The position numbers and the translations under genes were made by a program. This document shows, piece by piece, positions 1,461-44,110 of a stretch of 64,000 nt of DNA. The notes beneath the pieces were generated by a model. The model worked only from the letters and a program-made list of their open reading frames with translations. It had not been told where the DNA came from and made no database searches. Numbering within the stretch: position 1 is the stretch's first letter; each line of letters starts with the position of its first letter. The stretch is from the human T2T-CHM13v2.0 reference genome, Homo sapiens: assembly GCF_009914755.1 (NCBI RefSeq), contig NC_060937.1; one strand, written 5' to 3'.

Positions 1461-1564
1461 ATTCAGGATGAGCCTGGAGTATCTTATAGTGCAAGAAAGT
1501 AAGGAAGTGTCCAAAATACAAAAGCAAACATAAAGCAAACAAAACTCCACAATAAGGAAGGTAT

Positions 1565-2375
1565 TATAAAGGAATACAGGAGCTAACTGAAGGCTCCCAA
1601 TGGCCAAAGCTGGAAAATTTTGAGCAAAAAATTAAATAAAGTAGCATGGGATTATAACTCAACATATAAAATAAATGTCCATGAGTCCATAATGATATAA
1701 ATAAAGAAATAAATGTGGTAAAAGGGACAAATCTCCCATGCAGAACAATTCCAAGTAATTCATGTGGATACGCCACCTTCAAAGAGATGAGATGGTGTGG
1801 TCTGCACACAGTCACTTCCTTCAGAAGAGCACAGTGTGAAAACAGGGAATAAAAGAATATCTTTCCATTGGAGAAAACTGCTGGACACCACCTCAGCCAG
1901 GTGATCAAAAACAACAGTGGTAAGTCATGTTCATCGAATGTATCCTTGACATGAGGAAAATGGTACTTTACCTCTGTGTTCTTCCTCTCCCAAACCTGTA
2001 ACTCCGGATTAATCATGAGGAAGACAATTCCCAATGAAGAGACATGCAAAAAAATGCCTCAAAATTGTCAAGGTCATCAGAAATGAAAGACGTGAGAAAC
2101 TGTCGCAGCCTAAGAAGACACAACTACTAAATATCATGTGGCATCCTGGATGAGATCCTGGAACAGAAAAAGGATGTTAGGTGAAATCTAAGGAAATCTG
2201 AATAAAGTATGAACTGAAATTAATAATAATGTGTCAACATTGGTGAATTAATTGCAGCAAATGTGCCGTGATGTAAGATGCTAATAACAAAGGAGACAGA
2301 GCATGGAGCATAAGAACTGTCTTTGCAAGTTTTCTGTAAATCTAAGACTATACTAAAAAGTCAAGTTTATTTTTT
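1565..2375 (+). mobile_element. L1MC/L1MD-type 3' UTR
   Basis: ggctcccaatggccaaagctgg...cctggatgagatcctggaacagaaaaagg...ttttctgtaaatctaagacta. Confidence 0.75.
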
Positions 2376-4525
2376 AAAAAGTACTTCTCTTTCCTGTAAT
2401 AATGTAAGACAGATTAGGGGAGAGCCATATAACAAAGTCTAGAATCAATTGAAGTGGCATCATAAAGCTAAATTCCAGAAAAATGTGTACCATCTGGCTT
2501 CGTGGAACCCAAATGTGCTGGCTTAGTGCTAAAGTGGCAGCCAGGAAGGGTTTAAATGGTGTTATCATTAATACATATTTGGCAGCAGGAATTTCCATTA
2601 TTAGCAGCTGAAAAAACATGCCATGGAACACTTGAACAGAACTGTACAGGAAAATACAAACTCTCCCACTTTGCTCTCTTTATGCAGCAGACATCTCCTG
2701 AGAAACAAAGAGCTGAGTTTTTCTTTTCAGAGCCTGCAAGATTTATTTCTTTTAGAAAAATCTACCTTTAATTACTGTAGAATGCTCCCTAATGCTCAAA
2801 GACTCCTGAGCTCATTGGATGCCTCAGGACTAAGAACTGGGCTTTGTTATTATTATTTAGAAAACAAACAGGTTCAGAGAGGGTCAGTAATTTGCTCTGA
2901 ATCCACATCTGGTAAGTTGTGGAATTGGAACTTGAACCTAGGTCTTTCAAATAAAAACTGAATGTCCTTTATACAACTAAAAATGATTTGAGACATTTTT
3001 TGTCCTGTTGTTTGGGCACATGTTAGCGGACATCAGACATCCAAAACAAAAACGTCACCTTCTGATGAGTGAAGGCAGCAAGGTGGGCTTTGGCCTTCCC
3101 AATGGGTGTCGACACTAACCAGAAAATTCTTCTGAGCAACACTGAGCCTCAGTTCTATCATTTATCTTCTTCTTTCAGTTTGTCCCTCAAATGCTTTCAC
3201 CATCTCTGTTTCTTGTATTAATCTGATCATTTTTGTCTTTGATTTCTGCACAGCTGGTGAAGTCACTCTTCACCTTATTTGGTTCTCCTTCCACACTGCA
3301 TTTCAGCTTTAATCACCTCTCTCATCTGCCTGATGCTGAGACCCTAGTCCTTGTTCCTGTTTGCCGTGGTCTTGACCACATGACAAAGAGTATTAGACTA
3401 TCGGAGAAGACCCAAATGCTATTTTGATTTGAAAATCTGCACTATTTTCAAAGGTTCACTGAGAAACTGGAGTACTTGATAATTCAGAGTTATTAAGATT
3501 ATCTAATTCTGCCTAATCTCTCTTATGTGGGAGATAAGGTTTAATATGTATCACTTCTAATGAAAGGAGATGAGGAATTGGGTCATTCCTTTCAATTTCA
3601 CAGTAATATTTCACTGACCTCTAAAAATACCTCCTATTAAAATGTATAGAAACCAATTCTTGGGCAGAACTCAGACTTGAATAGAAGCAGAGAATAATAC
3701 TGCACATTAGAAGAAGAAATGTCTCTTCCGAATAGGACCTTAGGTTTTAAAAATCCAACCAACTCAGAAACAACGGGACACTTTGAGATGTACTTAGATC
3801 TCTGTCAGCGAGTTTTCCAAAAGAAGTCAGGGCCACCCTTACTGGGGATGTTGTCAAAGAGATTCATATTTTACACATTGGGGTGAAGGGCCTGGGGAAA
3901 TGTTGTTGATCACTTCATGCAAATTCGCAAAGCGTTCCATATTTAAAAAAAAAAAAAGAAAGAAATTACTTTTTTAAACCTACATATAAAATGAGATTTT
4001 ATATTGAGTCACTGTAGCCTATTAAAACTCATCTCAATTTTTGTTACCAGAGTGCTATTTTCATTGTGCAACGCTTTGCAAATTCTCATTGCCCTCTGCT
4101 AATAATTCTGAATTTGAATCTATATCCTCTTAGAGAGAGTGAGATCTTTGCACTTCTAAAGGTTGCAGAGCCAGTGGCTTTGTCTCCATGTGACTGTGCA
4201 CTGAAGGGTAATGTTCTCATGCCTCAAGGGGCAGCCAGATAGCCTGGGGAAGAGCAATGGAATGGAGCACGCTGGGAGAGCCAAGGCCTGGAATTAGGGA
4301 GTAGGGAGAAATGTTGGCTACAGGCTCTGGGAAGTGTAGTCTAGCAGATAGAATGCTATATCCAAGGGTAGGGAAATAGATACGGGGGAAGGGGGTTGGA
4401 GGTGGAGAGAATGTGTTGGAAGCAAAGATCTCAAAGCAACGTAGTAGGAAAATTATGAAAGACAACCAGAGAAAAGCAATGAAGACTGAAGGATAGAATA
4501 ATACTCAGTCGTTTCGTGAAAGGGC

Positions 4526-5665: not shown

Positions 5666-7049
5666 AATGAATTTTTTTAAAAAGAGAGACAGTGGCAGCA
5701 TCAGATTTCCATCACAGGAACTCAGGTACTAGCAACAATGGAGAAGCCCAATTCTCAGAACTGGCATGTGAGGTGGATACTAGATCTTGGGTGACAGAAG
5801 GGCCTGTGTGCAATGCGGAGCTCAAGGTCAGAACAGACCAGAGGTACATCTGACTGTGTGCAGTGATTTAGGGCATGTGCTGGAACACTTGACTGCTGCT
5901 TAAACCCGGGAAATGGCTGAGTCTGAAAGTGGGCTTAAGTAGCCTCAGCTATGGACGTCAAGGAAGTCTAAAAAGGCTGGGTATTGGGCAAGACTAATAC
6001 ATGCTGGTTCTTTGTAATCTCATTTTCCTCACCCAGGACTCATGTTGAGGAGGACAACAAAAGAAATCAGCCCTGAGACAAACCAGCTCCCACTGAAGGA
6101 AATAATTTGACCATGAACAGAGTGGAAACAGGATATAGAGCTCCCAATATTTTAGGCCAACTCACTAACTAGTAGACAATTCTTCCTTTTAAAGAATTCT
6201 ATGCCTTTTCACTAATGAATTAATGTCCCTATGGAGCCACAAAGGATGAGAATTTAGCCCAAATGTATACTTAAATTGGATCGCCTTGTAAGAATGCTTT
6301 AAAAAATAAAATGCAGCCACCTGTGACATATTAAGACTGTTAATGTACTCATTGACATAAATACCTGAAGGGTTTTTATAACAGCTGGAACATGGCTCAA
6401 AGATCTTTTGTATTTGATTTTTAATGTACTTCCAAAGTGACTTCATAAAATTGCAACCACTACCACCAGTGGGGTTTCGTTTAACTCCTTGAGTCCTCAT
6501 CTTCCAGTGCTATTGATGCCAGTGATTACCATTACTGCTCACTCTAAATGTCTTGAAGATAAAAATCAAACTCCAAATACATTAGCAATTGAGAGACAAG
6601 ACTTAAAAGACAGGCAATCAAGACCTACATGTCCCTGGCCACCACAACTCTCACAAAATGACATTTTCTTGGCTCCACCCTCACTTCCTCTGTAGAGTCC
6701 ACAGTCCCTTCAAATTCTTCCCATATGGGTCTTAGCAAGGCCTAAATTCCTCCCATATGGCACCACTGAAGGGTTCGGGCAATAAACCTCCTCAACTGTG
6801 ACTGGACCCCAGACTGTCCAGCCTACTGTGGGGCTGCATCCATCTCATCTCTGCCAGAGGTGACAGCTTGGCCTCTACTTCCCACTAGACAAATTGTTAA
6901 CTGTTGATGTCCACGCCAAAGCTGATGGTGACTGAGGCAGAAGGAACTGGTGTCTGAGCCACAACAGCCGGTTATGACAGACCCTGTACCACTCCTAGGG
7001 CCACCCTTCCATTTCATCTCCACCCCATCGTCCTTGAGTTTGGTTCAAT

Positions 7050-8380
7050 CATTTGTCTGTTCGTTCAGTCAACAAATGTTTATTAAACATCTATTATGTG
7101 CTGAGCACCAAAATAGGCTGATGATGTAGAGGCTATGTGCAAAAGAAGCATGATGGAGCTTACATTCCCGTGTGCAGACCAACAGTAACAGGTGAACAAA
7201 TTAATAAATGCATAACTACTTATGTGAAATGCTAAGAAAGTAATAGTCAAGGTGCTGTGATCAGGAATAAGAGCTGATGGAGTGGTCAAGAGCGGGCCTC
7301 CTTCAGGAAATGACATTTAAATTAAGACCCAAAGGGTGAGAAGGAAACAACCATTTAAAGAGCCGGGGAAAGAGTTTCACAGGCAAAGGGAGTATAAGGA
7401 AGAAAAACACATGGGCCATTCAAAGACCTAAAATAAATCTGCAGTGGGTGTAGCTAGAGTCAAGTGAGAGAGAGGCAGAATGGTAGGAGGCTGGGTTGAG
7501 CAGCAAGGTGGGGCAGGCTATGTTTGACTTCTGTAGGTTGAACCTGAGAAGCCATTAAATAGAAGGGGAATGGATAGTTTTCTTCACATTTTGTAAAAAA
7601 ATGTAAAGCTCATCTTGACTGCTATGTGGAGAGTAGATTGGAAGATACCAAGAAGGGAAATAGGAAAGTTATTTGTAATCATTCAGGTGAGAAATGATGA
7701 TGGCTTAAAGTAGGACAGCAGCAGTGAAGATGAACATAAGTAAATGGGAGATGCATTTTGAAATAGGAAGGATTTGCTGATAGATTCAATATATAGGTGC
7801 AGTAAGGGAGAAGAATCAGATGACTACCAAGTTTCTGGCTTGAGCAATTGGATGGATGATGATGCATTTACTGAGATCAGGAAGATAAAAAACAGACTGC
7901 GGTGAGGAAATCAAAAGTCTGCAACATATTAGGTTTGTTATGCTTATGAGACACTGCAGTGAAGCACTGAGTAGGCATTTGCATATACTCACTCGTTAAC
8001 ATATATTTTTGAGTCTCTACTATGTGTAGGAACTGAGCCTAATTCTAGGGGTATAGCAGTAAACATAACAAAGATGATCTTTGACCTTAGGAAGTTTACA
8101 AACGAGCAGGTAGGGCAAACACTGGACAAGTAACTAAGCATGATATAGGTACCAGTGCAGAAATTGGAGCCAGGGGGTGGGCAAGGGGGGAAGAACAAGG
8201 AGGCTGACAATCTGGGTGGCTAGCAGAGGTTTCCTAAGGAAGTTTCCTAAGACACTTAGCTCTGATATATGAACAAAATTAGCTCAGTAAAGAGGTGGAG
8301 GCAGAGTTTCAGGCAGAACATGTGCAGAGCATGTGTAGAGGCCTGGAGGCAGGAGAGATTAGGTTTTTCCAGGAACGAGT
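7050..8380 (-). mobile_element. L2 fragments (two 3' ends, ~7050 and ~7990)
   Basis: ttcagtcaacaaatgtttattaaacatctattatgtg...; cagatgactaccaagtttctggcttgagcaattgg. Confidence 0.75.
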
Positions 8381-8600
8381 CTTATAGAACTAATTCTTTC
8401 CCAGAATGTTCTCAGTCCTCATGAAATTCCAGTTAGCAGGCTAGTTCCACTCATCCTCCAGACATGCTGGAGTGGCCAGAGGGTCAACGCAGCCTGCACT
8501 CCAGCCAGGACTCCTGCTATACTGTGTCTAAAAGATCAAAGTTCATTCTTTCAATTAACAATTCCTTGAGCACCTGACTATGGATCACGGAGGTCTAGAT

Positions 8601-8944
8601 CAGCAATCCCCAACCTTTTTGACAGCAGGGATCTGTTTCATGGAAGACAATTTTTCCATGGATTGGGAGGGGGAGGGAGAGATGGTTTGGGGATGAAACT
8701 GTTTCACCTCAGATCATCAGTCACTAGATTCTCATAAGGAGCAGGCAACCTAGATCCCTCTCATGCATGGTTCACGATAGGGTTTGTGCTCCTATGAGAA
8801 TCTAAGGCTGCTGCTGGTCTGACAGGAGGCAGAACTCTGGCAGTGATGCTCGCTTGCCCACTGCTCACCTCCTGCTGTGCAGCCTGGTTCCTAACAGGCC
8901 ACGGGCTGGTACCAGTCTGCAGGCTTGGGGGTTGGGGACCCCTG
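8601..8944 (+). mobile_element. MER1B (hAT-Charlie MITE)
   Basis: TIRs cagcaatccccaacc / ggttggggacccctg; 8-bp TSD gtctagat/ctctagat. Confidence 0.9.
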
Positions 8945-10149
8945 CTCTAGATAAACTTCTTGCCTCTCAGAAAGAACTTGTCACTTAGTGGAGAATGAAG
9001 AGTGTTATACTAAAGGTATGTCTAAAGAACCATGGGGAGATTGAAGAAGGAGTGACCGGCTCTCCCTGGAGCCACAGAGGAGACATCACAGAAAAGGAGG
9101 GAGAAAGAAAGAAATGGCAACACTGACATTGGTTGAGCACTTGGGATTGATATGTGCATTTGGGAAATGGCAAGCCATTTGGGAGAACGAACCATTCTTA
9201 GAACTCAGTTTGCCCAATGAATATAATTTCCTCTCTTAGATACATGATCTTCTTCCTTAGCATTGAGAAGATTTCTCTGCATTTGGTAATAGCTATGATT
9301 TTGCAACTGGCAGGTTTTTTCAAGGAAAGACCCTAGTATGGAAGGCTTATGAAATAATCCAATGCTTGTGGTCCTATGAGTAAAGGAGGGAGAAACCCCC
9401 AGGAGTCAATCTGAAGGCCACAAACTTTTATTTCCACCTGCCAAGTTTCCATCACTTTTGCAGGTAGTCCTGAGATAACTAGGATGGAAACCCTCTCCTT
9501 ACCAGTAAAGACAAGCCATCCACTTAGCGGTCCTTCTGTTCCATCCTCCAGAAAGACACGAGGCCTTTGGTAGCTCTCCATACTCCCTACTCCCCCACTC
9601 CCAATACCAATATTGGAGAATCTGCCATTTGGAAACTCTCAAGCACAGCCTTCCTTCAGGACTGGCTCAAAAAAATCATTTTGCTTTTGGCATTTTTAAT
9701 TAAAGTGGCATTGCATAAAAACAGATGAAAACATGTCAGTAACTCAAAGTTATTAGAAAATGGAGATGAGAAGAGAGAGAAAAAAGGTGAGAGTGGGAAG
9801 AATCCTAGAAAGGAAATGAATCTATGTGAGAAACTATTTCCCAATGAACTCCCATGCTAATCACAGCCTTCAGACGTCAGTAGCAGAGGCTACAGCCGAG
9901 TGATAATTAGAAACCAAGCAACCTTTCTGAAAGAAGTACAAGATGGAACATTATTAGGTAAAGTGGTTTTTTCTTTCTTTTTTTTTTTTTTACACCCAAG
10001 AAGTGTGCCGTTGTTCCTTAATAGCTTTGAAAAGCAAGAACATTAAACACAAAGGCAGTGTGTCAGGAGTAGCAGAAAACTCCAGGATGGGCTTTTTCTT
10101 GTCGCTCCTGGGAAGAGTTAAGTCATTTAGTCTATACAATTAAAACACC

Positions 10150-23089: not shown

Positions 23090-23840
23090 TCACTCACTCA
23101 CTCATTTAATAACTATCTATCAAATGCCTACTATGTACCATATGCCATTCTAGACACTGAATACATTGGCAAACAAAAACAGACAAAGGCAAAAAATAGT
23201 AAATACATAAGACGTCTTATTACATAACAAGTATATGTGTATTAGTAAATGCTACGAGAAAGAAAAGGAGAGCAGGTAAGGTGGTTGGGAAAGCTGTGGC
23301 AGGGAATGGGAAGTGTTTTGTTCATCAGGATAAGCAGAATGGGCCTCACGGAGAAGCTAACATTTGAGCAGAGACCCGAGGGAGGTGAGGGAGGTGGCCG
23401 TTTAGATGGCTGTCTGAGGGAAGCGCAGTCCAGGAAGAGGCAGGGCACAAGATCTAAGCAGCACACAGACTGTGTCAAGGAACCACAGGGAGTTCTGTGT
23501 GGCTGAAGCAGAGCGAGCAAGGAGGGCACAGCAATAGCAGCTGAGGTATTGCAGAAGCAAACGTAAGGGCCAGATCATACAGGGACTTATGGCCATTGTA
23601 AGAATGTTGGATTTAATTCTGAGTAAAAGGAGGAGTCTTCGCAGGCTTTTGAGCAGAGGAGTGGCATGATCTGATTCATGTTTAGGAAGGGTCAGCGCTA
23701 GCTTCTGGGCTGATGACAGATGGTGGACAGCAAGGGTAGAAGCAGAGAGACTGATGGGCATTTAGGGCAGTGATCCAGGCAAGAGATAAAGCTGGCGCTG
23801 ACCTGCTTGGTTACAGTGGAGGTTGTGAGAAGTGGTTGGA
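23090..23840 (-). mobile_element. L2 (3' portion)
   Basis: tcactcactcactcattt...tgcctactatgtacca...gagaagctaacatttgagcagagacc...ttttgagcagaggagtggcatgatctga. Confidence 0.8.
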
Positions 23841-23987
23841 TCCCTTCCCCTGTCCTCATCCCACTCTTGAGGCCATAAACACTGAGAAATGCACTCGATC
23901 ATCACACAGCAGAGCTAGCAGAACAGGAGAAAGGAGAAAAGTCTTGATGTTCTTGTGCAAATGGAGGCTGTAAAATTGACAAGATAA
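23365..23987 (+). repeat. Inverted repeat, left arm (L2 plus unique sequence)
   Basis: Reverse complement of 31638-32269; also visible as near-identical ORFs 23402..23761(-) and 31866..32318(+). Confidence 0.97.
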
Positions 23988-24512
23988 GACTGGACTTTGG
24001 ACTTGATGCTGAAACAAGTTGGGACATTGAGGAACTATTAGGATGCAATGATTGTATTTTACAATGTGAGAAGAACATGAGATTTGGGGGGCCAGAGGTG
24101 AAATGGTAGTTTTGGATGTTTTCTCCCCTCCAAATCTCATGTTGAAATGTGACCTGCAATGTTAGAAGTGGGGTCTAGTGGGAGGTATTGGATCATGGAG
24201 GCAGATTCCTCATGAACAGCTTAGCACCATCCCCTTGACTAGTAAGTGAGTTCTCACTCTGGGTTCATGCAAGATCTTGTTGTTTAAAAGAGTCTCTCTC
24301 TTGCTCACTCTCTCACCATGTGATGTGTCTGCTCCTGCTTCACCTTCTGCCATGAGTGGAAGCTCCTTGAGGTCTCACCAGAAGTGGAGTAGATGCCAGT
24401 GCCATGCTTTCTGCACAGCCTGCAGAACTGTGTGCCAATTAAGCCAGTTTTTAAAGATAAATTGCTCAGTCTCTGCTATTCCTTTACGGCAACACAAAAA
24501 CAGACTAATGCA
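23988..24512 (+). mobile_element. MST (MSTB-like) element: 3' end of internal region, polypurine tract and complete LTR (24104-24512)
   Basis: ggactttggacttg...aatgtgagaagaacatgagatttggggggccagaggtgaaa|tggtagtttggatg...cagactaatgca. Confidence 0.88.
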
Positions 24513-25745
24513 CCCAGTATACTTCCAGGCACACTGTGTCAAACAAATAGTAACTGATGGAAATATAGAGCTGTAAACACAGTGTACAATAAACTATATG
24601 GCTTGACACACTTTCATGAAGTCAAGATCTTAGTCCTTCTAATCCAAATGTGTTCTCTTGACCCTTTTGAGATAGTGTAACATTTGGGCCTTTACTCAAA
24701 GACGTGAAATCACTTAATGTAGACGATTATATTGTCAGAGGATAGGTTGACATATATCTGCTACAGTTATGTCTCTTCAAATAATTGTAATATTCCTGTA
24801 CATTTTAATTGGAAATTTCTGTTAAGGGTATAAGTTTTATTACTCAATTCAATTAAATCAAGTACATGCAAGAAGTCATTGAGGAGTAGCAAGTATAGGT
24901 CTTACATGTTCAAACCCAGAAAATAGAACACAAGTGTGTTTTAAAATAGAAACTTTTTCAATTAAACCAACCCCTTCCTGCTCAATAAAATTCATCTCAA
25001 TCAAAATTGATGACAGTACTTTCTAACTGTAATAAATGGCTGTAAATAAGCAATTCAATTTGCAATGCCTGCAACATGAAATATAATTAACCTAGCATAA
25101 CCTTCATTATAATATTTGTCACACCTTGAATCAAGGTTATCAAAATGGCCATTATTTGCAAGGGACAGAAGCCATTCATTGCTGAATTTGTTATGCCTGC
25201 ATTCTGAGGCAATAGTTTATCTATCTTCTATTTGGAAATTAAAATTTTAAAGTAATTACATAAAATAATATATTACAATTATTTGTTGCTATAATACAGG
25301 ATATGAAAAGCATTATACACAGGGAAATCTAAATAGCATCGCAACCCAGGTTCCATTTGTGAAATTTACTGTCCATTTATTGTGAGATTTTGATAAGCCC
25401 TTTATTACTAGAATGCTTCTGTATGTATTTTCATCAGTAAAATAAGAATAGGAGAAGTAGATGCCCCCTCATCTGAATGAAGCACATTAGGATTAAAATA
25501 GCAATATTCCAGTAGTCTTGCTTACAGCAAAATAAGCATTTTTGCTTGAAAAGACTAGATCAATTGAGAACTGATGTTGGAAGATGATGCTTGAAGTTTA
25601 TTTAGAATCAACACTGGCTTTGCTTATGCAGAGATTGATTGTTTTTAATTCAATGTATTCCTGTATTTATAGTGATGTTAACTGAATATAAAAATGGATA
25701 TCATTTGAGTTAAGCATCTTGCCACCTTTTTTTTAAAATGGGAAC

Positions 25746-27383
25746 TATTATTATAATAATTATTATTATTATTATTATACTCTAAGTTCTGGGTTACATG
25801 TGCAGAACGTGCAGTTTTGTTACATAGGTATACACATGCCCTGGTGGTTTGCTGCACCCATCAACTCATCACCTACGTTAGGTATTTAGGTATTTCTCCT
25901 AATGTTATCCCTCTCCTAGCCCCCCACCCCATGACGGGCCGAGGTGTGTGATGTTCCCCTCCCTATGTCCATGCGTTCTCATTGTTCAACTCCCACTTAT
26001 GAGTGAGAAGATGTGGTGTTTGGTTTTCTGATCTTGTGATAGTTTGCTGAGAATGATGGTTTCCAGCTTCACCCATGTCCCTGCAAAGGACATGAACTCA
26101 TCCTTTTTTATGGCTCTTTAGTATTCCATGGTGCATATGTGCCACATTTTCTTTATCCAGTCTATCATTGATGGACGTTTGGGTTGGTTCCAAGTCTTTG
26201 CTATTGTGAATAGTGCTGCAATAAATATATATGTGCATGTGTCTTTATCATAGAATGATTTATAATCCTTTGGGTATATGCCTAGTAATGGGATTGCTGG
26301 GTCAAATGGTATTTCCAGTTCTAGATCCTTGAGGAATTGCCACACTGTCTTCCACAATGGTTGAACTAATTTACACTCCCACCAACAGCATAAAAGCATT
26401 CCTATTTTTCCACAACCTCTCCAGCATCTGTTGTTTCCTGACTTTTTAATGATTGCCATTCTAACTGGTGTGGGGTGGTATCTCATTGTGGTTTTGATTT
26501 GCATTTCTCTGATGGCCAGTGATGATGAGCATTTTTTCATGTGTCTGTTGGCTGCATAAATGTCTTCTTTTGAGAAGTGTCTGTTCATATCTTTTGCCCA
26601 TTTTTTTGATGGGGTTGTTTTTTTCTTGTAAATTTGTTTAAGTTCTCTGTAGATTCTGGTTATTAGCCCTTTGTCAGATGGATAGATTGCAAAAATTTTC
26701 TCCCATTCTGTAGGTTGCCTCTTCACTCTGATGATAGTTTCTTTTGCTGTGCAGAAGCTCTTTGGTTTAATTAGATCCCATTTGTCAATTTTGGCTTTTG
26801 TTGCCATTGCTTTTGGTGTTTTAGACATGAAGTCCTTGCCCATGCCTATGTCCTGAATAGTATTGCCCAGCTTTTCTTCTAGGATTTTTATGGTCCTAGG
26901 TCTTACTTTTAAGTCTTTGATCCATCTTGAGTTGATTTTTGTAAAAGGTGTAAGGAAGGGGTCCAGTTTCAGTTTTCTGCATATGTTTTCCCAACACCGT
27001 TTATTAAATAGGGAGTCTTTTCCCCATTGCTTGTGTGTGTCAGGCTTGTCAAAGATCAGATGGCTGTAGATGTGTGGTGTTATTTCTGAGGCCTCCATTC
27101 TGTTCCATTGGTCTATATATCTGTTTTGGTACGAGTACCATGCTGTTTTGGTTACTATAGCCTTGCAGTAGAGTTTGAAGTCAGGTAGTGTGATGCCTCC
27201 AGCTTTGTTCTTCTTGTCCAGGATTGTCTTGGCTATGTGGACTCTTTTTTTGTTCCATATGAAATTTAAAGTACTTTTTTCCAATTCTGTGAGGAAAGTC
27301 AGTGGTAGCTTGATGGGGATAGCATTGAATGTATAAATTACTTTGGGCAGTATGGCCATTTTCACAACATTGATTCTTCCTAT
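25746..27383 (-). mobile_element. 5'-truncated L1PA7/8-like element with (AAT)n tail
   Basis: 3'UTR ttattatactctaagttctgggttacatgtgcagaacgtgcag...; ORF2 homology. Confidence 0.93.
26118..27365 (-). pseudogene. L1 ORF2p C-terminal fragment (415 aa open), non-functional
   Basis: [55 protein letters not shown]; 3-aa deletion (WENICRK vs WENWLAICRK) and premature stop. Confidence 0.9.
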
Positions 27384-28299
27384 TGAAACTGAGTTTGAAA
27401 GAATTGCAGTTACATCAAGGACTCATACTAATTCTCACATCAGGTTAGAATCAGTAACAGGTTTACAACTATAAAAACAACGACAGCTCGAGGATTTTGT
27501 TCTTTAAAAATGAAAAATTAAGTAGACATTTGTAGATTTTACCTTTATTTGTTGGCTGAAGTTCTGTTTGGCATAAAATAATTACGGGCCACTCTGAATT
27601 ATACTTACCTGTCCTATTATCTCATATTTAAGAAATGGCTGAACCACTGGGAAGATTAGGAGGGAGGAGGGGCACTCCTAGGACCTGAAGACTGCAAAGA
27701 ATTTTCTGGGTCTCCAGAGTCCCTTATCCCCAGCATGGGATGTTCTTTCAAATATTTTGATTATTCACTTTTATCATTGAAAGTTATATGTATATTAATT
27801 TATTATTATATATTAAGAATGTATATAATGTGCATCTATTATGTTCAAATACAATAATTTTAAAAGATGAAATATAGGTGAAATAAACAATACTTTAATA
27901 AATGCATATTTTCTTAATAAAATAGAACCCATGTGCTCTCACTATAAACATTATTATTGAATATACTTCTGTATCAGTTAGCCTTTACTATATAACAAAA
28001 CACTCAAAAACGTAGTGACTGAAAACAACTTTCATTCACTTCCTCACAATTCTGTGAGGTGGCAGCTTGAGCTTTGCTTCTCTGGATGGTTCAAAGGCTG
28101 CTCACTTCCAGGCTCAGTCATGCGACTGCAGTCAGCTGGCATCTCAGCTGGAGTTGGATGGTCCAGGATGTTCTAAGTTGGAAATTGGCAGCCTGGATGT
28201 CTTGGTTTTCCTCCATGTGGCCTCTCTAGTGGGATAACTTGGGCTTTTTCACATGGTCACAGGGCTCCCAGCAGCAACAGAGGCAGGTCCAAATGTGTG

Positions 28300-28561
28300 T
28301 TTTTTTTTTTTTTTTTTTTTTTTTTTTGAATTGTAGTCTCACTCTGCGGCCAGGTTGGACTACAGTGGGCAAACTTGGCTCACTGCAATCTCCACCTCCC
28401 AGGTTCAAGTAATTCCCCTGCCTCAGCCTCCCGAGTAGCTGGGATTACAGGCACACACCACCACACCAGGCTAATTTTTTGTATTTTAGTAGAGACAGGG
28501 TTTCACCATGTTGGCGAGGATGGTCTCTATCTCCTGACCTTGTGATCTGTCTGCATTAGCC
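28300..28561 (-). mobile_element. AluS (Sc-like), 5' end missing
   Basis: Poly-T then Alu right and left arms, ending abruptly at gcattagcct. Confidence 0.9.
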
Positions 28562-28564
28562 TAT

Positions 28565-29415
28565 AGATTTTATTTTTAGAGCATTTTTAGGTTTACAGAA
28601 AAAATTTAGCAGAAAAGCAAACTTCCCAAAATACCCCTTCTCTACCCACTTGCATCCTCCCCCAACAGTTTCCCCTATTAACATCTTGCACCAATACAGT
28701 ACTTTTGCTACAGTTGGTGAACAAATATCAATACATTATTATTAACTAAAGTCCACAGTTTACATTAGGATTCACGCTGTGCTGTGCAGTTCTATAGGTT
28801 TTGCCAAATGCATGATGTCATGTATTCACCATTACAGTTTTATATACAATAGTTCCACTAAAATACCTTAAGTTCCACCTATCCATCCCTCTCTCTCTCC
28901 CCCCATATTCTTGGTAACCACTGATTTTTTTTTTTTTAACTATCTCTGGAAACTTGCCTTTTCCAGAATGTCTTATATTTGGAATCTTACAGTATATCAC
29001 ATTTTCAGGCCAGTATTTTTCACTTAGCAAAATGTTATTAAAGTTCTTTCTTGTTTTATCATGACTGATAAGGTTTTTTCTTTTTGTAACTAAATAATAT
29101 TCCATTGCATAATGTACCATACTTTGTTTATTCATTCACCCACTGAAATAAAGTTGCTGTAAACATTCATGGGCAGATTTTTGTGTGAACCTAAGTTTTC
29201 AATTAATGTGGGTAAGTAGCAAGAATTGTGATTGCTGGATCATTTGGTAAGGTTATGTTTAGTTTGCAAGAAACTGCCAAACTGCCTTCCAAAATGGCTA
29301 TACTGGTTTGCATTTGCACCAGCAATGAATGAGAGTTCCTGTTGCTCTACAACCTCACTCAGCATTTTACATGTCAGTGTTTTGGATTTTAGTTACTCTA
29401 ATAGATATGTAGTAA
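28565..29415 (-). mobile_element. L1MC-type 3' region
   Basis: ttttagagcatttttaggtttacagaaaaa...attattaactaaagtccacagtttacattagg...aagaaactgccaaactg. Confidence 0.8.
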
Positions 29416-31205
29416 AATTCAAGCTTATTATTGCTTGAATTTATCTAAGTATGTTTTCAAGCCTGTTTGCATCATACTTGCTAGTGATCTCTTCAGCAAA
29501 GCAAGTCATATAGACGAAGCCCCATGTCTGTGTGGGAAGCGAATACCCAAAAGGCATGGTTTTCAAGAGAGAATTGTGAAGTCCTTCAATAAACAATCTA
29601 CCACGACTTTGTCATTGTTTTTTATCTTGGTTTTGTAGTTTGTGATATAGTGATTCCAAGTTCTGGGCTATAACAACAGTCGACTTCATTACTTGGTTTT
29701 AATAACCATTAAGCTAAAAAGATATCTTACAAAGATCTCATTGAAAGTTGTTGATTGAGTTTACAATATAATATTCTGATTTTTTAGTCTCATTCATAAT
29801 TATATAAAAAAATCTTTTTGTTAAAATTTATTAATTTTCATCTTCTCTGGCATCAATTCATTTTTCTCACAATTTTGAAGGTGAGTATTTTTTTTATTTT
29901 CTAAAACATTGATTTAAAAATTCAATGAAACTCTCTGAAAGATTTTTGACATAATAAAAAATTGTCTTGAATTTTATAATGGTACAGACAAGAGATTTCT
30001 AAATAGGTTGTCTACATTGTTTTCAGCATCAAGATCACATAACCAAGGAGCATTTTCAAACATCTTTTTTCAAATTCTCTTTCTATAGCACCCATTTCTT
30101 TCAAAAGCAATTTCTTTCTTACTTATCATTAAAATTGATGTGTTAATATTTTAAAAATATCAACTAGCTTAACTATTAGCCACTTGTCATGGTAGAAGTG
30201 GTAAGCAATTTTGGAACACTAGTATCTTTACAGAAGAAAGTAACTCATTTTAAAATTTAACAGCTCTTCTAAGTAACTTACTATGAGATAACTAAGGAAA
30301 CTCTGTGTAGTATAAAAGTATTTTGTGGTCATGGTCACAGGCATATGTAAACTGCAAAATATCGGAATATGCTGAAAATTAAAAAGTGCTGGAAGGTGCT
30401 GCCATTAACACCTCTGTCTTGTGAAACCCCTGCCAACTGTGGGTTACACAAACCTCTAACACTTGGACCAACTGAGGAAACCTGTATCAGTCCTCATGTT
30501 AATGGTGAATTTTACTCCTTTATTTATTATTTAAGATAAGTAAATAGAAATCTGTTATGCTTAGCTCTGGGATGCCTGCACCCTACTTTGGAGACCCTTG
30601 TAACAAACAGCCATTGATTTCAAGGTACATGTGAAATGGGTCTTCGAAGGGAATTTCTGGCACGGTGTCAAGGAGGGTTTCTTCAGTGTCAAGTTGTATG
30701 GTACTTGTGTCATATTTGACTCAGAATACATTTTTCCATAGGATCCATGTTGTGATGCTTAGGGTCTTGAGTTATTTCTCAGATTTTAAAAAACCTATAC
30801 CATAACTATTAATCTATAATCTAAACTAATTAAAATACTATTTTGGTCACATAATAAATTAAGTCAATTTTATGAGCCAGCTTTCAAAATTAACCAATAT
30901 CAGGATAATTCTGAGTGTCAGGAAAGTGTAACCTCCACTTGTTTTACTTTAATTCTTTTGTACCACCATGAATATATCCACCCACTTAGCCCCCTCGATG
31001 CTGAATAGAGCAGTGGGACACAGAGAGAGGTTGTCAGGACAAACATCTTCCAAATGGGTTGTACCGTTAACTGTGGAGGAGAGTCATGGGCCCTTTCTTT
31101 TCCGAAACCATTCACCTGCCTTTCCTTGCAATGATAATAAATATATTACATGTTGAGAATGACAAAACCAGTTCTTTACTCAAAGGTTCAGTTATAAGTG
31201 TAAAG

Positions 31206-31399
31206 CAGGACTTCTCAGCCACAGCACTGCCGGCATCTTGGGCCACATAATTCTTCGCCGTGAAGCTCCGTCCTGTCGATGTAGGATGTTTAGTAGTATC
31301 CCTGGCCTCTACTGCTTCTAGATGCCAGTAGCACTCCTTTCCAGCAGTTACAATGACCAAATGTCCCCTGAGGGGTAAAGCCATCGTTAAGAACCATTG
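31206..31399 (+). mobile_element. MER20 (hAT-Charlie)
   Basis: tgtaggatgtttagtagtatccctggcctctac...tagatgccagtagcac...ccaaatgtcccctg...gttaagaaccattg. Confidence 0.85.
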
Positions 31400-31637
31400 G
31401 TCAAAAGGTAAAAGGATCACGGGAGGGGTTGGATGTCCTGCTACTTCTTTCTTCCTTTGCACTAAACAATGAAGGCTGTTTCCCAAGTGAATTTCTTTTC
31501 CTTCCCTTCCTAGATCGCAATCCTCTCTTCCTGAAGTCTTATTTTTGTTCCTTTCCTTTCTTGGTATCTTTACTTTCCCTATTTCCCTGGACATACCACT
31601 TAACCCTACAAAAATTATCAACCCCCAAATACACTCT

Positions 31638-32269
31638 TTATCTTGTCAATTTTACAGCCTCCATCTGCACAAGAATATCAAGACTTTTCTCCTTTATCCT
31701 GTTTCTGCACCTCTGCTGAGTGGAGGAGTGAGTGCATTTCTCAGTGTTTATGGACTCGAGGGTGGGATGAGGACAGAGGAAGGGATCCAGCCATTTCTCA
31801 CAACCTCCACTCTTACCGAGCAGGTCAGCACCAGCTTTATGTCTTGCCTGAATCACTTGCTCTAAATGCCCATCAGTCTCTCTGCTTCTACCCTTGCTGT
31901 CCACCATCTGTCATCAGCCCAGAAGCTAGCGCTGACCCTTCCTAAACATGAATCAGATCATGCCACTCCTCTGCTCAAAAGCCTGCAAAGGCTCCTCCTT
32001 TTACTCAGAATCAAATCCAACATTCTTACAATGGCCATAAGGCCCTGTATGATCTGGCCCTTACGTTTGCTTCTGCAATACCTCAGCTGCTATAGCTGTG
32101 CCCTCCTTGCTCGCTCTGCTTCAGCCACACAGAACTCCCTGTGGTTCCTTGACACAGTCTGTGTGCTGCTTAGATCCTGTGCCCTGGTTCTTCCCTCTTC
32201 CTGGACTACCCTTGCCTCAGACAGCCATCCAAATAGCCACCTCCCTCACCTCCCTCGGGTCTCTGCTCA
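31638..32269 (-). repeat. Inverted repeat, right arm
   Basis: Reverse complement of 23365-23987 with an 8-bp indel. Confidence 0.97.
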
Positions 32270-32596
32270 TGGGGGCAGATCCCTCATGAATGTCTTGGTG
32301 CTGTCCTTGCGTTTATGAGTGAGTTCTCACTCTTAGTTTACATGAGAGCTGGTTGTTTGAAAGAATGTGGCACCCCTTCCTCTCTCTCTTGCTTCCCTCT
32401 CTGGCCATGTGACATGTCTCTTCCCCCTTCTCCTTCTGCGATGAGTAAAAGCTTCCTGAGTCCTCACTAGAAGCTGAGCAGATGCTGGTCCCATGCTTGC
32501 ACAGCCTGCAGAACCATGAGCCAAATAAACATCTTTTCTTTATAAATTACCCAGTCTTAGGTATTCCTTTACAGCAATGCAAAATGTACTAACACC
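32267..32596 (+). mobile_element. MST (MSTB1-like) LTR lacking its first ~90 bp
   Basis: tcatgggggcagatccctcatgaatg...cagcctgcagaaccatgagccaaataaac...gtactaacac. Confidence 0.88.
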
Positions 32597-32898
32597 CTGG
32601 GTATTGTGCAAAATTCACCAGAGAATGGAGGGGGCAAATTTCCACTGAGCATCAGTTTTAACTGATTAGGAAGGCTCATTTAAATGTCATCATAGAAATA
32701 AAAAACAGACTTGGGTCCTATGGAAAATTAGTCACAAAGACTGTTCTACTTCATATTTCTTTTTCAAAGAGACACTTTTTTTGTGGCATCAAAGGTCCTT
32801 CTTAATCTGGCTACTCTATTACTGCAGTTTCCTCTCTCATGACATTCTACCACAAAACTTACGTTCCTGCTGTAGTGCTTTCTCAGGTCATGCCGCAG

Positions 32899-33240
32899 GA
32901 TAGAGACTGAATGTCATGTGTTGAAATCTGTTGCCTTATGTGCTGGTATTTGGAGGCATCCTAATGTGATGACTTTAGAAGGTTTTTAGGTCATAAGCGC
33001 TCCTCACAGGATTAGTAGCTTTAACAAGAGATCCCAGAAATCCCTGTTTCTTCTGCCATGTGAAGACACAGTGAAAAAAGGACTATCTATGAAACAGGAA
33101 GTGGACCCTCACCACTGAAACTGTTGGTGGCTTGATCTGGGACTTCCCAGTTTCTAGAACTATAAGAAATAAATTTCTGCTGTTTATAAGCCACACTGTC
33201 TGTGGCATTTTGTTATGGAAACCCAAAAGGACTAAGAAAC
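32899..33240 (+). mobile_element. MSTD/MLT1A-like LTR
   Basis: ccatgtgaagacacag...ttgatctgggacttcccagtttctagaactataagaaataaatttctgctgtttataagcc...ggactaag. Confidence 0.8.
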
Positions 33241-42864: not shown

Positions 42865-44110
42865 AGAAAAACCTCAATCTCAACATGTCTAAAACTGAAT
42901 TTATTATTTTCCCTCCAAAACCCGGTCTGTGTTTCTTAGAGAATGGCATCACTGTTAAACCCACTTGTACAACCAAAGAACTAAAAAGACATCCTTGATG
43001 ACTCCCTTGCCCTCAGCCACCATGTAGAATTCTTCACCAACGCCTGTTGATTTTACCCCTTAAATATCTCTTGACTCTGACTCCTCTCCATCTCCACTGT
43101 CATCACTATCATCCTTCATCTCTAGTCACTGGTTGTGTTAGGTCATTCTTACACTGCTATAAAGAAGTATCTGAGACTGGGTAATTCATAAGAAAAGAAG
43201 TTTAATTAGCTCACAGTTCTGCAGGCTCTACAGGAAACATAGCAGCATCTGCTTCTGGGGAGGCCTCAGGAACAATCCAATCATGGCAGAAGGCAAAAGG
43301 GGAGCAGGCACATCAAATGGTGAGAACAGGAGAGAGAGAGAGGTACGGGGGAGGTGACACACTTTTAAATGACCAGATCTCACAAAAACTCACTACTACA
43401 AAGACAGTACCAAGACATGGGGGATCTGCCCCCATGATCCATCTGCCCCCATGATCTCCCACCAGGTCCCCACCTCCAGTGCTGGGGATTACAATTCAAC
43501 ATGAGATTTGGGTGGGGACAAATATCCAAACTATATCACTGGTAAAAACTGCTGGATTGTCTAGCCTCCTCTGTTAACTCTGATCTTCTACAATTTATTC
43601 TTATGCCACAGCTAGAATAATCTTTTTCAAACATAAATCCAATAGTAATATTGCTTTCTGGATAAAGTCCAAGATCTGTACATGACTGACAAAATTCTGA
43701 ATGTTCTGGCCTGACCCACGTCTTCAGCTTGACTTTGAGCTACTTCTCTTCATACACTGTGATCCACTGTGCTTTAGTCACTTGGACCTCCTTCCAGTTC
43801 TTCAAACTCATATGTTTACTTCCAACCACAGCATCTTTGAGGATGACATGTGCCCAATGTCTAATGCTCTTTGGTTCACACTTCTTCTTCCATTCACCTA
43901 ATTAGCCATTATTCATCCTTCAGAGCTGAGATCAAGTGTCACCCTCTCAGAAAGGCCTTTCTTGATTCCCTCAGTCCAGCCATGTTCATTGTCATAAAAC
44001 TGTCTTCCTTTACTTCAGAGCAAACAGCTAATGTGCAATTTTACATTCATTCATCCTTTAATCTATTGTAAGTTCAATATAGGTGGGGACTATGTCTGAC
44101 TTTTTTTTTT
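42865..44110 (+). mobile_element. L2 interrupted by MSTA
   Basis: acctcaatctcaacatgtctaaaactgaatt...ccacagctagaataatctttttcaaacataaatc...ctcagaaaggcctttcttga. Confidence 0.75.
43134..43538 (-). mobile_element. MSTA solo LTR
   Basis: tgtgttagg...tgctataaagaagtatctgagactgggtaatt...acatgagatttgggtggggacaaatatccaaactatatca; perfect 5-bp TSD ctggt; internal tandem duplication atctgcccccatgatc x2. Confidence 0.92.

What the first reader, a model, noticed from the sequence alone, without database searches (positions are those of the whole stretch)
23988..32601. Fossil of an aberrant two-donor (U5/U5) MaLR integration patched with copied host DNA
Seen: MST LTR1 ends ...gactaatgca (24512) followed by CCCAG (24513-24517). 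MST LTR2 ends ...gtactaacacc (32596) followed by CTGGG (32597-32601), its reverse complement. The two LTRs differ substantially (MSTB-like vs MSTB1-like). Known: MaLR integrations make 5-bp TSDs, as the MSTA at 43134 shows (ctggt). Inference: flipping the segment between the inverted arms gives CTGGG-[revLTR1-rev internal]-[625-bp inverted host copy]-[LTR2 3' part]-CTGGG. That is one target site holding two outward-facing LTR 3' ends from two different elements, bridged by a templated copy of sequence ~7 kb away. The junctions show apparent microhomology (tca at 32267-32269; agata-like at ~23982-23987). This resembles aberrant retroviral integrations seen experimentally and would explain how the inverted repeat arose. 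Caveats: it needs one substitution at the LTR2 terminal base, and the arms look younger than MST activity, which implies conversion or a later patch.
Basis: partly seen in the sequence, partly recalled or inferred. Interest (0 to 1): 0.8.

Follow-up and report, generated by a model that had tools for sequence, protein, structure and literature searches.

The report
Inverted duplicate abutting two old LTRs
A 625-base stretch of human chromosome 13 was copied upside-down about 8 kb away, landing inside an old retrotransposon LTR; it looks like an ordinary local DNA rearrangement rather than a freak double retrotransposon integration.

Summary
The sequence features are real. Inverted arms 23365-23989 and 31635-32269 match, weakly on to 24007/31617; blastn gives 92% over 654 columns. 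The genome holds only these two copies. The left arm abuts about 122 bp of MaLR internal sequence plus a complete LTR (24104-24512) followed by CCCAG. The right arm abuts the 3' 327 bp of a second MST-type LTR (32270-32596) followed by CTGGG. Both LTR ends sit at the family's terminal column. Such a reverse-complement pentamer match occurs in 1 of 1378 pairs of unrelated copies.

The two-donor reading fails two dating tests.
- LTR1 is about 1.8 times more diverged than LTR2 (0.15-0.19 against 0.086-0.105 substitutions per site). LTR1 was no more diverged than LTR2 in only 2-3 of 200 bootstraps.
- The arms are younger than both LTRs, at 0.049 or less per lineage. A central 325 bp was homogenised to 0.019 pairwise.

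The left arm is the source, because older repeats run unbroken across both its edges. The right arm has two new junctions, one with TCA microhomology and one with a 12-of-18 partial match.

Best reading (0.57): a host rearrangement after both LTRs had integrated, followed by gene conversion. Rivals: one-ended aberrant integration of LTR2 (0.2) and two-donor integration (0.04). Outgroup primate genomes, not available here, would decide.

The parts
23365..23989 (+). Left arm of the inverted repeat, the source copy. It is made of an ancient interspersed repeat (about 23300-23845) plus about 145 bp of otherwise unique sequence. It overlaps the RefSeq 'enhancer' 23260-24141.
   Evidence: Searches give the homology to 31635-32269. 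In one search, 11 of 38 non-self hits from other loci span the outer edge at 23365 by at least 10 nt on each side, so the older repeat runs on into the left flank.
23441..23765 (+). Central tract of the arms, homogenised by gene conversion. Its partner lies within 31858-32194.
   Evidence: 6 differences in 325 bp (K2P 0.019) against 27 in 295 bp in the rest of the arms (K2P 0.098). Fisher p = 4.7e-5; 337 nt at 97%.
23982..24103 (+). Last ~122 bp of a MaLR internal region, cut off on its 5' side where it meets the left arm.
   Evidence: seven full-type copies elsewhere (L002-L008) match from 23982-24000 onward. Their upstream parts are homologous to one another over 0.4-1.6 kb and have no counterpart in the window. 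One search shows the purine-rich internal end just before the LTR start.
23990..24007 (+). 18-nt tail where the arms still match weakly (12 of 18). The left version is good MaLR internal sequence. The right version (31617-31634) is not.
   Evidence: 6 mismatches in 22 from 23986. L004 matches 23991-24007 at 17 of 17; no MaLR homology to the left of 31617.
24104..24512 (+). LTR1, a complete MST-type MaLR 3' LTR of 409 bp.
   Evidence: 39 of the 40 listed rows are other genomic copies, at 74-78% identity. One search places the 5' end against the family start. One search places the 3' end in the terminal column.
24513..24517 (+). CCCAG, the pentamer following LTR1.
   Evidence: It is not internal sequence: 5' LTRs of this family are followed by a conserved GAAAATTGGTA-type start.
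24518..31616 (.). The ~7.1-kb part of the spacer between the arms that lies beyond LTR1. It is single-copy at its left end, holds an Alu at about 28300-28562 and a long masked repeat at 25883-27386, and has an old repeat near 31300-31372.
   Evidence: 24513-24950 is unique in the genome. (Alu matches). (hits to query positions 490-561). The hub's masking table.
31617..32269 (-). Right arm, the inverted secondary copy. Strong homology covers 31635-32269 and the weak tail covers 31617-31634.
   Evidence: Both of its edges are new junctions.
32267..32269 (+). TCA shared by the arm end and the LTR family, a 3-bp junction microhomology.
   Evidence: 46 of 62 genomic copies read TCA just before the point where LTR2 begins; reading the left arm in reverse complement, its outer end reads TCA.
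32270..32596 (+). LTR2, the 3' 327 bp of a second MST-type LTR. About the first 90 bp of the LTR are missing.
   Evidence: 39 other copies at 80-84% identity, plus one weaker 72% partial match. One search places the end at the family terminus, with ...ACACC in place of ...ACACA.
32597..32601 (+). CTGGG, the pentamer following LTR2. It is the reverse complement of CCCAG.

Best explanation
Two MST-type MaLR elements integrated independently and at different times, LTR1's element first. That element later lost its 5' LTR and most of its internal part, leaving the junction at about 23982-23989.

Much later a local host rearrangement copied the 625-645 bp lying just upstream of it (23365 to about 24007) in inverted orientation. 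The copy landed 7.6 kb downstream, inside LTR2. LTR2's first ~90 bp, and an unknown amount of sequence upstream of it, were lost.

The junctions have 3 bp of microhomology (TCA) and a 12-of-18 partial match. They fit either of two routes, which give the same final structure:
- replicative template switching or break repair (FoSTeS/MMBIR-type templated insertion);
- an inversion with a duplicated breakpoint, later flipped back.

Since then the arms have exchanged sequence by gene conversion in their central 325 bp. They could therefore also have flipped the 7.6-kb spacer.

What is shown and what is inferred:
- Shown: the structure, the direction of copying, the junction homologies, the relative ages and the conversion tract.
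- Inferred: the mechanism, and that the CCCAG/CTGGG match is coincidence.

No function is implied, although the left arm lies in a RefSeq-annotated enhancer.
For: - Direction of copying. An old interspersed repeat runs unbroken across the left arm's outer edge (11 of 38 non-self hits span it). MaLR internal sequence runs unbroken across its inner edge. The right arm abuts mid-LTR on one side and unrelated sequence on the other.
- Locality. There are only two copies in the genome, 7.6 kb apart.
- Junctions. TCA is shared by the arm end and the LTR family (46 of 62 copies). The inner junction has an 18-nt partial match.
- Order of events, per-lineage divergence: LTR1 0.15-0.19, LTR2 0.086-0.105, arms at most 0.049, central tract 0.0095.
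- The two LTRs fall in different clusters of a star-like tree, though the clusters are weakly supported.
- The heterogeneity along the arms is significant (Fisher p = 4.7e-5).
- Precedent. Inverted duplications made together with inversions are documented (17 of 29 Drosophila inversions; PMC1885836, abstract and passages read).
Against: - The reverse-complement pentamers after both LTR ends have a chance level of about 1e-3. This model has to call that a coincidence.
- Both arms end next to 5'-truncated MaLR pieces of the same broad family, and the left arm's strong homology stops within about 8 bp of where MaLR sequence starts. This model leaves that partly to chance.
- Gene conversion is demonstrably active in the arms, so their divergence is only a lower bound on their age.
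- The set of relatives is not exhaustive: the search scores only 40 of 7000-9000 candidates. LTR1's long branch could therefore include divergence that arose before it inserted.
- No outgroup genome could be consulted.
Confidence: 0.57

Rival explanations
1. One-ended aberrant integration of LTR2. Integrase inserted only the U5 end of an MST cDNA at ...|CTGGG. The other end was truncated within the LTR. It primed DNA synthesis on nearby host DNA at the TCA match and copied 23365 to about 24007 in inverted orientation. It was then rejoined to the chromosome through the partial match at 31617-31634. A variant has reverse transcriptase switching to a host RNA. LTR1's element was already there and merely adjoins the template.
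For: This is the structure described for aberrant HIV and ASLV proviruses. They have one normal end and one truncated end. There is a short homology to the appended DNA, and nearby host sequence of hundreds to thousands of bp is copied from either strand, with duplications, deletions and less often inversions (PMC5041404, sections 10 and 12 read).

LTR2's 3' end is intact, its 5' end is truncated, and TCA is shared at the junction. No trace of LTR2's 5' part survives.
Against: - The arms look about half as old as LTR2: at most 0.049 per lineage (0.037 without CpG sites) against 0.086-0.105. By my rough estimate this is about 2 to 3 standard errors. Conversion of the whole arm could hide the gap.
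- With wild-type integrase none of 99 and none of 85 HIV proviruses were aberrant, so such events are rare.
- The pentamer match is still a coincidence under this model.
Confidence: 0.2
2. Two MaLR cDNA ends, both U5, were inserted in concert into one CTGGG target. Their truncated inner ends were joined either through a templated copy of host DNA or directly, followed by a later breakpoint-duplicating inversion. Recombination between the arms gives today's orientation.
For: - The reverse-complement pentamers sit exactly at two intact LTR 3' ends. The chance level is about 1e-3 (1 of 1378 control pairs).
- This family does make 5-bp duplications, and old copies often keep them. The pentamer is found near the 5' end in 20 of 60 copies, 13 of them at the exact offset.
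- The model explains at one stroke why both arms abut 5'-truncated MaLR pieces, with short homologies at both junctions.
Against: - The LTRs differ about 1.8-fold in private divergence at the same locus. LTR1 was no more diverged than LTR2 in 2-3 of 200 bootstraps.
- The arms are younger than both LTRs.
- The left arm, not the right, is continuous with older repeats. This fits a 'patch' only if conversion erased about half to two thirds of the expected arm divergence.
- Neither search produced an in vivo case of two-U5 integration (listings only).
- The coincidence was selected by eye from a very large scan.
Confidence: 0.04
3. The arms are as old as, or older than, LTR2 but have been repeatedly homogenised. 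The two LTR truncations are unrelated older deletions, so nothing links the LTRs to the origin of the arms.
For: A conversion tract is demonstrated. 5'-truncated MaLR fragments are common; this is general knowledge and was not measured here.
Against: - It needs two separate coincidences of arm edges with LTR truncation points.
- The right arm's outer edge shares TCA with the LTR at exactly the truncation point. That is what a junction formed in the copying event predicts.
Confidence: 0.08

Closest known systems
Templated inverted insertion or duplication by replicative template switching (FoSTeS/MMBIR). The name and mechanism are recalled, and no paper was read here.
   Same: A local segment of a few hundred bp is copied in inverted orientation a few kb away. 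The junctions carry microhomology, and target sequence is lost.
   Different: The mechanism cannot be shown from one genome. The inner junction has an unusually long imperfect match (12 of 18) rather than 2-5 bp.
Inversions with inverted duplications at their breakpoints, the staggered-break model (Ranz et al. 2007, PMC1885836; abstract and passages read).
   Same: A formerly unique segment ends up as inverted copies flanking a segment of several kb.
   Different: Here the source arm is continuous with both of its neighbours. A simple staggered-break inversion therefore fits only if the spacer was flipped back later. The spacer's ancestral orientation is unknown.
One-ended aberrant retroviral integration repaired by host enzymes (Varadarajan et al. 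2016, PMC5041404; sections 10 and 12 read).
   Same: One intact LTR end and one truncated end. The truncated end is joined through a short homology to a copy of nearby host DNA, which can be inverted.
   Different: Those are experimental HIV and ASLV events under integrase impairment. Here the patch appears younger than the LTR, and nothing ties the event to integration.
Human inversions mediated by inverted repeats, such as HsInv0347, with 1.6-kb THE1C repeats around 7.1 kb (Aguado et al. 2014, PMC3961182; table passages read).
   Same: Sub-kb to kb inverted repeats bracket a spacer of about 7 kb, and there is evidence of exchange between the arms.
   Different: This locus is not in that paper's list, whose chr13 entries lie at 63 and 79 Mb. 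Whether the spacer flips in humans or apes was not testable.
Two-donor concerted integration with U5-only substrates in vitro. This is recalled; only search listings were seen.
   Same: It would give two outward-facing U5 ends and one short target duplication.
   Different: It is an in vitro reaction with short donor DNAs. The age tests here speak against one simultaneous event.

Membership tests
MST-type ERVL-MaLR LTR elements | Homology to many dispersed genomic LTR copies, with a shared start and a shared ...ACACA end. | tested here: met
   For LTR1, 39 of the 40 listed rows are other copies at 74-78% identity. For LTR2, 39 other copies are at 80-84%, plus one weaker 72% partial match. Both 3' ends are in the terminal column.
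MST-type ERVL-MaLR LTR elements | 5-bp target-site duplication. | tested here: met
   For the family: 20 of 60 copies keep the 3'-flank pentamer beside the 5' end, 13 at the exact offset. The window's MSTA has ACCAG on both sides. For LTR1 and LTR2 themselves the 5' sides are gone, so their own duplications cannot be read.
MST-type ERVL-MaLR LTR elements | Subfamily assignment (MSTB against MSTB1). | not testable with these tools
   No Dfam or RepeatMasker library was available. The tree only places the two LTRs in different, weakly supported clusters (SH-aLRT 88, not starred).
Two-donor (U5/U5) single-site integration | Two intact LTR 3' termini, each followed by the same pentamer in mirror orientation. 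| tested here: met
   Control: 1 of 1378 unrelated pairs. The mirror orientation requires a hypothetical flip of the spacer.
Two-donor (U5/U5) single-site integration | Both LTRs inserted at the same time, so they carry equal private divergence at one locus. | tested here: not met
   0.15-0.19 against 0.086-0.105. LTR1 was no more diverged than LTR2 in 2 of 200 bootstraps (own-group estimate) and 3 of 200 (cross-group estimate). ML end branches are 0.19 against 0.085, and 0.16 against 0.078 with CpG columns masked.
Two-donor (U5/U5) single-site integration | The bridging patch is as old as the LTRs. | tested here: not met
   Pairwise K2P of the arms is 0.098 +/- 0.017 in their most diverged parts and 0.019 in the centre. 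Conversion could mask a greater age.
Two-donor (U5/U5) single-site integration | A predicted empty site in species that predate the insertion. | not testable with these tools
   No non-human eukaryote genomes are held. Both flanks are single-copy in the human genome, so no repeat-based substitute test was possible.
Templated inverted duplication / breakpoint duplication (host rearrangement) | One copy is continuous with older sequence on both sides, and the other has two novel junctions. | tested here: met
   (outer edge). (inner edge). (right arm).
Templated inverted duplication / breakpoint duplication (host rearrangement) | Microhomology at the novel junctions. | tested here: met
   TCA. 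A 12-of-18 match at a fixed offset. As a free local alignment this short match is not above shuffles: 191 of 300 shuffles reach its score.
Templated inverted duplication / breakpoint duplication (host rearrangement) | The event post-dates the elements it disrupts. | tested here: inconclusive
   The arms appear younger than LTR2 by about 2 to 3 standard errors, by my rough estimate. Gene conversion in the arms weakens the inference.
One-ended aberrant integration with a host-templated patch | A normal integrase-made end, a truncated other end, short homology to the appended nearby host DNA, and a patch of the same age as the LTR. | tested here: inconclusive
   The first three features are met. 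The equal-age feature leans towards not met.

The most novel reading that the evidence does not exclude
The inverted arm was made during, not after, a retrotransposon integration. On this reading the locus is a germline fossil of an aberrant MaLR integration. Either only LTR2's U5 end was inserted by integrase and host enzymes patched the truncated end with an inverted copy of DNA 9 kb away, or, more exotically, two U5 ends hit one CTGGG site. Either form would be natural, tens-of-millions-of-years-old evidence for the aberrant integration products so far seen only in cell culture with impaired integrase.
Probability: 0.22. Interest if true: 0.6.

Novelty: new member of a known kind. Interest (0 to 1): 0.27.

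Why it matters
On the best reading this is one more small inverted duplication in repeat-rich intergenic DNA, and it is of local interest only. It creates a pair of 625-bp inverted repeats with a 325-bp stretch at 98% identity around a 7.6-kb spacer. That is the kind of structure that can toggle by recombination. It also duplicates most of a sequence annotated as an enhancer.

If the integration-coupled reading were right, the locus would show that aberrant, host-repaired LTR-element integrations reach the germline and persist. It would also give a template for finding more of them.

The practical lesson for the scan is that a 5-bp flank match at about 1e-3 is not enough. Dating the two LTRs and the arms against genomic relatives is a cheap discriminating test.

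Tried and rejected
1. Testing the predicted empty site through older repeats. Both flanks (24513-24950 and 32597-32900) are single-copy in the genome, so no adjacency test was possible.
2. Looking for old-repeat continuity across the right arm's inner junction. No other locus spans it.
3. MaLR internal sequence elsewhere in the window or after LTR1. None was found. The only internal fragment is 23982-24108, and all other hits were Alus embedded in the comparison loci.
4. MaLR homology continuing left of 31617. It is not above shuffles.
5. A target-site preference that would inflate the pentamer match. None was seen in 53 flanks.
6. LTR1 and LTR2 as the two LTRs of one provirus. Rejected, because both are followed by non-internal sequence, LTR1 is preceded by the internal 3' end, and 5' LTRs of this family are followed by a conserved internal start that is absent here.
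7. A palindromic duplication of one LTR plus its flank. Rejected, because beyond the pentamers the flanks do not match.
8. A known human inversion polymorphism at this locus. It is not in Aguado 2014. There is no chr13 text in the main text of Giner-Delgado 2019. A coordinate look-up in the supplements of PMC12350158 gave nothing relevant. This is not an exhaustive check.
10. Masking CpG columns caught only 9 of 375 columns, so the non-CpG dating of the LTRs is crude.

Full report
**What is there**

The window is human T2T-CHM13 chr13:43,276,001-43,340,000. The stated features are all present.
- The repeat finder reports four collinear inverted pieces: 337 nt at 97%, 135 nt at 89%, 85 nt at 88% and 76 nt at 92%.
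- blastn joins them as 23365-24007 against 32269-31617, at 92.2% over 654 columns.
- A global alignment shows strong homology for 23365-23989 against 32269-31635. That is 625 bp, with a 7-bp indel at 23440. An 18-nt tail follows (23990-24007 against 31634-31617) that matches only 12 of 18.
- The human genome holds only these two copies.

**The two LTRs**

Other genomic MaLR copies match the left locus from 23982-24000 through 24499-24516. Seven of them (L002-L008) carry mutually homologous internal sequence upstream, over 0.4-1.6 kb. Solo-LTR-type hits start near 24111. The family's LTR start aligns at 24104.

So 23982-24103 is the last ~122 bp of a MaLR internal region, and 24104-24512 is a complete 409-bp 3' LTR. 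No other internal MaLR sequence exists in the window, and the sequence after LTR1 is not internal.

LTR2 (32270-32596) is the 3' 327 bp of another MST-type LTR. It is homologous to LTR1 from 24193 onward, at 72% over 325 columns.

In an alignment with 62 other copies, both 3' ends sit in the family's terminal column. LTR2 reads ...ACACC where the family reads ...ACACA. The following pentamers are CCCAG (24513-24517) and CTGGG (32597-32601). They are exact reverse complements.

**Is the pentamer match more than chance?**

The family does make 5-bp duplications.
- The window's MSTA (43135-43530, minus strand) has ACCAG on both sides.
- Among 60 fetched copies with the 5' end covered, 20 keep the 3'-flank pentamer beside the 5' end, 13 of them at the exact offset.

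I then took the 3' flanks of 53 unrelated copies. Nine of the 62 were dropped: five 5' LTRs followed by internal sequence, and four with unclear ends. Among them, 1 of 1378 pairs is an exact reverse complement, against 1.35 expected. Base use at the five positions shows no strong preference.

The match is therefore a coincidence of about 1e-3 for one pre-specified comparison. That is real, but it was selected by eye.

**Which arm is the original?**

Copies of an ancient interspersed repeat elsewhere in the genome align across the left arm's outer edge. It looks to me like an L2 3' region, but that name is recalled and not tested. Of 38 non-self hits, 11 span 23365 by at least 10 nt on both sides. 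The right arm's homology starts exactly at that base. At the inner edge, MaLR internal sequence runs straight on from the left arm into LTR1.

The right arm instead abuts mid-LTR on one side. On the other side it abuts sequence with no MaLR homology and no repeat continuity.

The junctions:
- The outer junction shares TCA between the arm and the LTR family. 46 of 62 copies read TCA there.
- At the inner junction, the left version of the 18-22-nt tail is good MaLR sequence (17 of 17 to L004). The right version differs at 6 of 22 positions, more than the rest of the arm.
- That tail is therefore either a partial match used for rejoining or an error-rich end of the copy.
- As a free local alignment the short match is not above shuffles: 191 of 300 shuffles reach its score. 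It counts only as a fixed-offset extension of the arms.

**Dating**

All dating used pairwise distances and trees.

| Feature | Estimate | Source |
|---|---|---|
| LTR2 to its 29 best relatives | mean K2P 0.203 (0.233 among those relatives) | |
| LTR1 to its 33 best relatives | mean K2P 0.303 (0.300 among those relatives) | |
| ML end branches, LTR1 / LTR2 | 0.19 / 0.085 | |
| ML end branches with 9 CpG columns masked | 0.16 / 0.078 | |
| Star-decomposition, own group | 0.153 / 0.086 | |
| Star-decomposition, using the group not selected on each LTR | 0.189 / 0.105 | |
| Arms, 23365-23985 overall | pairwise K2P 0.055 | |
| Arms, 23441-23765 | 0.019 | |
| Arms, remaining 295 bp | 0.098 +/- 0.017 (0.075 without CpG sites) | |

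LTR1 came out no more diverged than LTR2 in 2 of 200 bootstraps (own group) and 3 of 200 (cross group). The heterogeneity along the arms is significant (Fisher p = 4.7e-5).

Per lineage, the order is LTR1 (0.15-0.19), then LTR2 (0.086-0.105), then the arms (at most 0.049), then the central tract (about 0.01). The two LTRs lie 8 kb apart, so regional mutation rate cannot explain their 1.8-fold difference.

Caveats:
- The genome search scores only 40 of 7000-9000 candidates, so nearer relatives of LTR1 may exist.
- End branches include any divergence from before insertion.
- Conversion makes the arm divergence a lower bound on age.

**What this means for the models**

Two U5 ends inserted in one event predicts equal LTR ages. 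Neither holds. The model survives only if LTR1's donor was an already decayed copy and conversion erased half to two thirds of the expected arm divergence.

My own rough weighting is an inference, not a computed result.
- The pentamer match favours a shared site by roughly 270-fold: about 0.27 for a true duplication surviving intact, against 0.001 by chance.
- The age mismatch counts roughly 10- to 20-fold against.
- The prior for an in vivo two-U5 integration is very low. Two literature searches gave no example (listings only).

I put this model at about 4%.

The structure is what a templated inverted copy produces, with loss of target sequence and microhomologous junctions. An inversion with a duplicated breakpoint gives the same result if the spacer later flipped back. 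Breakpoint duplications of this kind were found in 17 of 29 Drosophila inversions (PMC1885836). I cannot tell these routes apart, nor the spacer's ancestral orientation. The reason is that recombination within the arms carries the arms' inner parts along with the spacer.

**The serious rival**

The right arm may have been made when LTR2 integrated. Aberrant HIV and ASLV proviruses have one normal end. Their other end is truncated and joined, through a short homology, to copies of nearby host DNA. Those copies run to hundreds or thousands of bp and are sometimes inverted (PMC5041404, sections 10 and 12). LTR2 plus the right arm fits that description.

Two points count against it. The arms look about half as old as LTR2, by my rough estimate about 2 to 3 standard errors. 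Such events are also rare with normal integrase: 0 of 99 and 0 of 85 proviruses. I give it about 0.2.

**Aftermath**

The sharp 325-bp tract of near-identity inside otherwise 10%-diverged arms is a gene-conversion footprint. It shows that the arms have paired in comparatively recent time. Flipping of the 7.6-kb spacer is therefore plausible. I could not test for it in other humans or apes, and the locus is absent from the inversion lists I could read.

**Verdict**

- The copy direction and the junction homologies are supported.
- The two-donor integration is not supported, though it is not refuted.
- The most likely history is two independent MaLR insertions of different age, then a later local inverted duplication into LTR2, then gene conversion.
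- This is a new instance of a known kind of rearrangement, of modest interest.
- Outgroup primate genomes would settle it.

Noticed in passing
window 32900-33200 (+): About 300 bp downstream of LTR2 lies what looks by eye like the 3' half of another, older MaLR-type LTR. It was not picked up by the LTR1 or LTR2 blast and was not tested further.
   Followed up: no
window 23260-24141 and 31617-32269: The RefSeq 'enhancer' interval covers the whole left arm. The right arm is therefore a 92-98% identical inverted second copy of most of that annotated element.
   Followed up: no
G000:C5:74933432-74934105: Two MST-type LTR pieces lie on opposite strands only about 76 bp apart, with their 3' ends facing each other (tail to tail). 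This is an inverted LTR pair of the opposite geometry to the one proposed here.
   Followed up: no
L063 (G000:C20:18896185-18899534), about 1501-1910 (+) and 2571-2968 (-): A second inverted pair of MST-type LTRs about 660 bp apart, also tail to tail.
   Followed up: no
window 23440 / 32187-32193: The arms differ by a 7-bp indel. The right arm has an extra GAAGAAC-like unit that looks like a small tandem duplication of the neighbouring GGAAGAG.
   Followed up: no
loci L059, L061, L069, L079 and probably L075: 5' LTRs of this family are followed by a conserved GAAAATTGGTA... start of the internal region. It is presumably the primer-binding-site area and is a handy marker for telling 5' from 3' or solo LTRs.
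   Followed up: partly
window 31300-31372: An old interspersed repeat near the right end of the spacer has at least three relatives elsewhere in the genome, at 79-80% identity. Its family was not identified.
   Followed up: no
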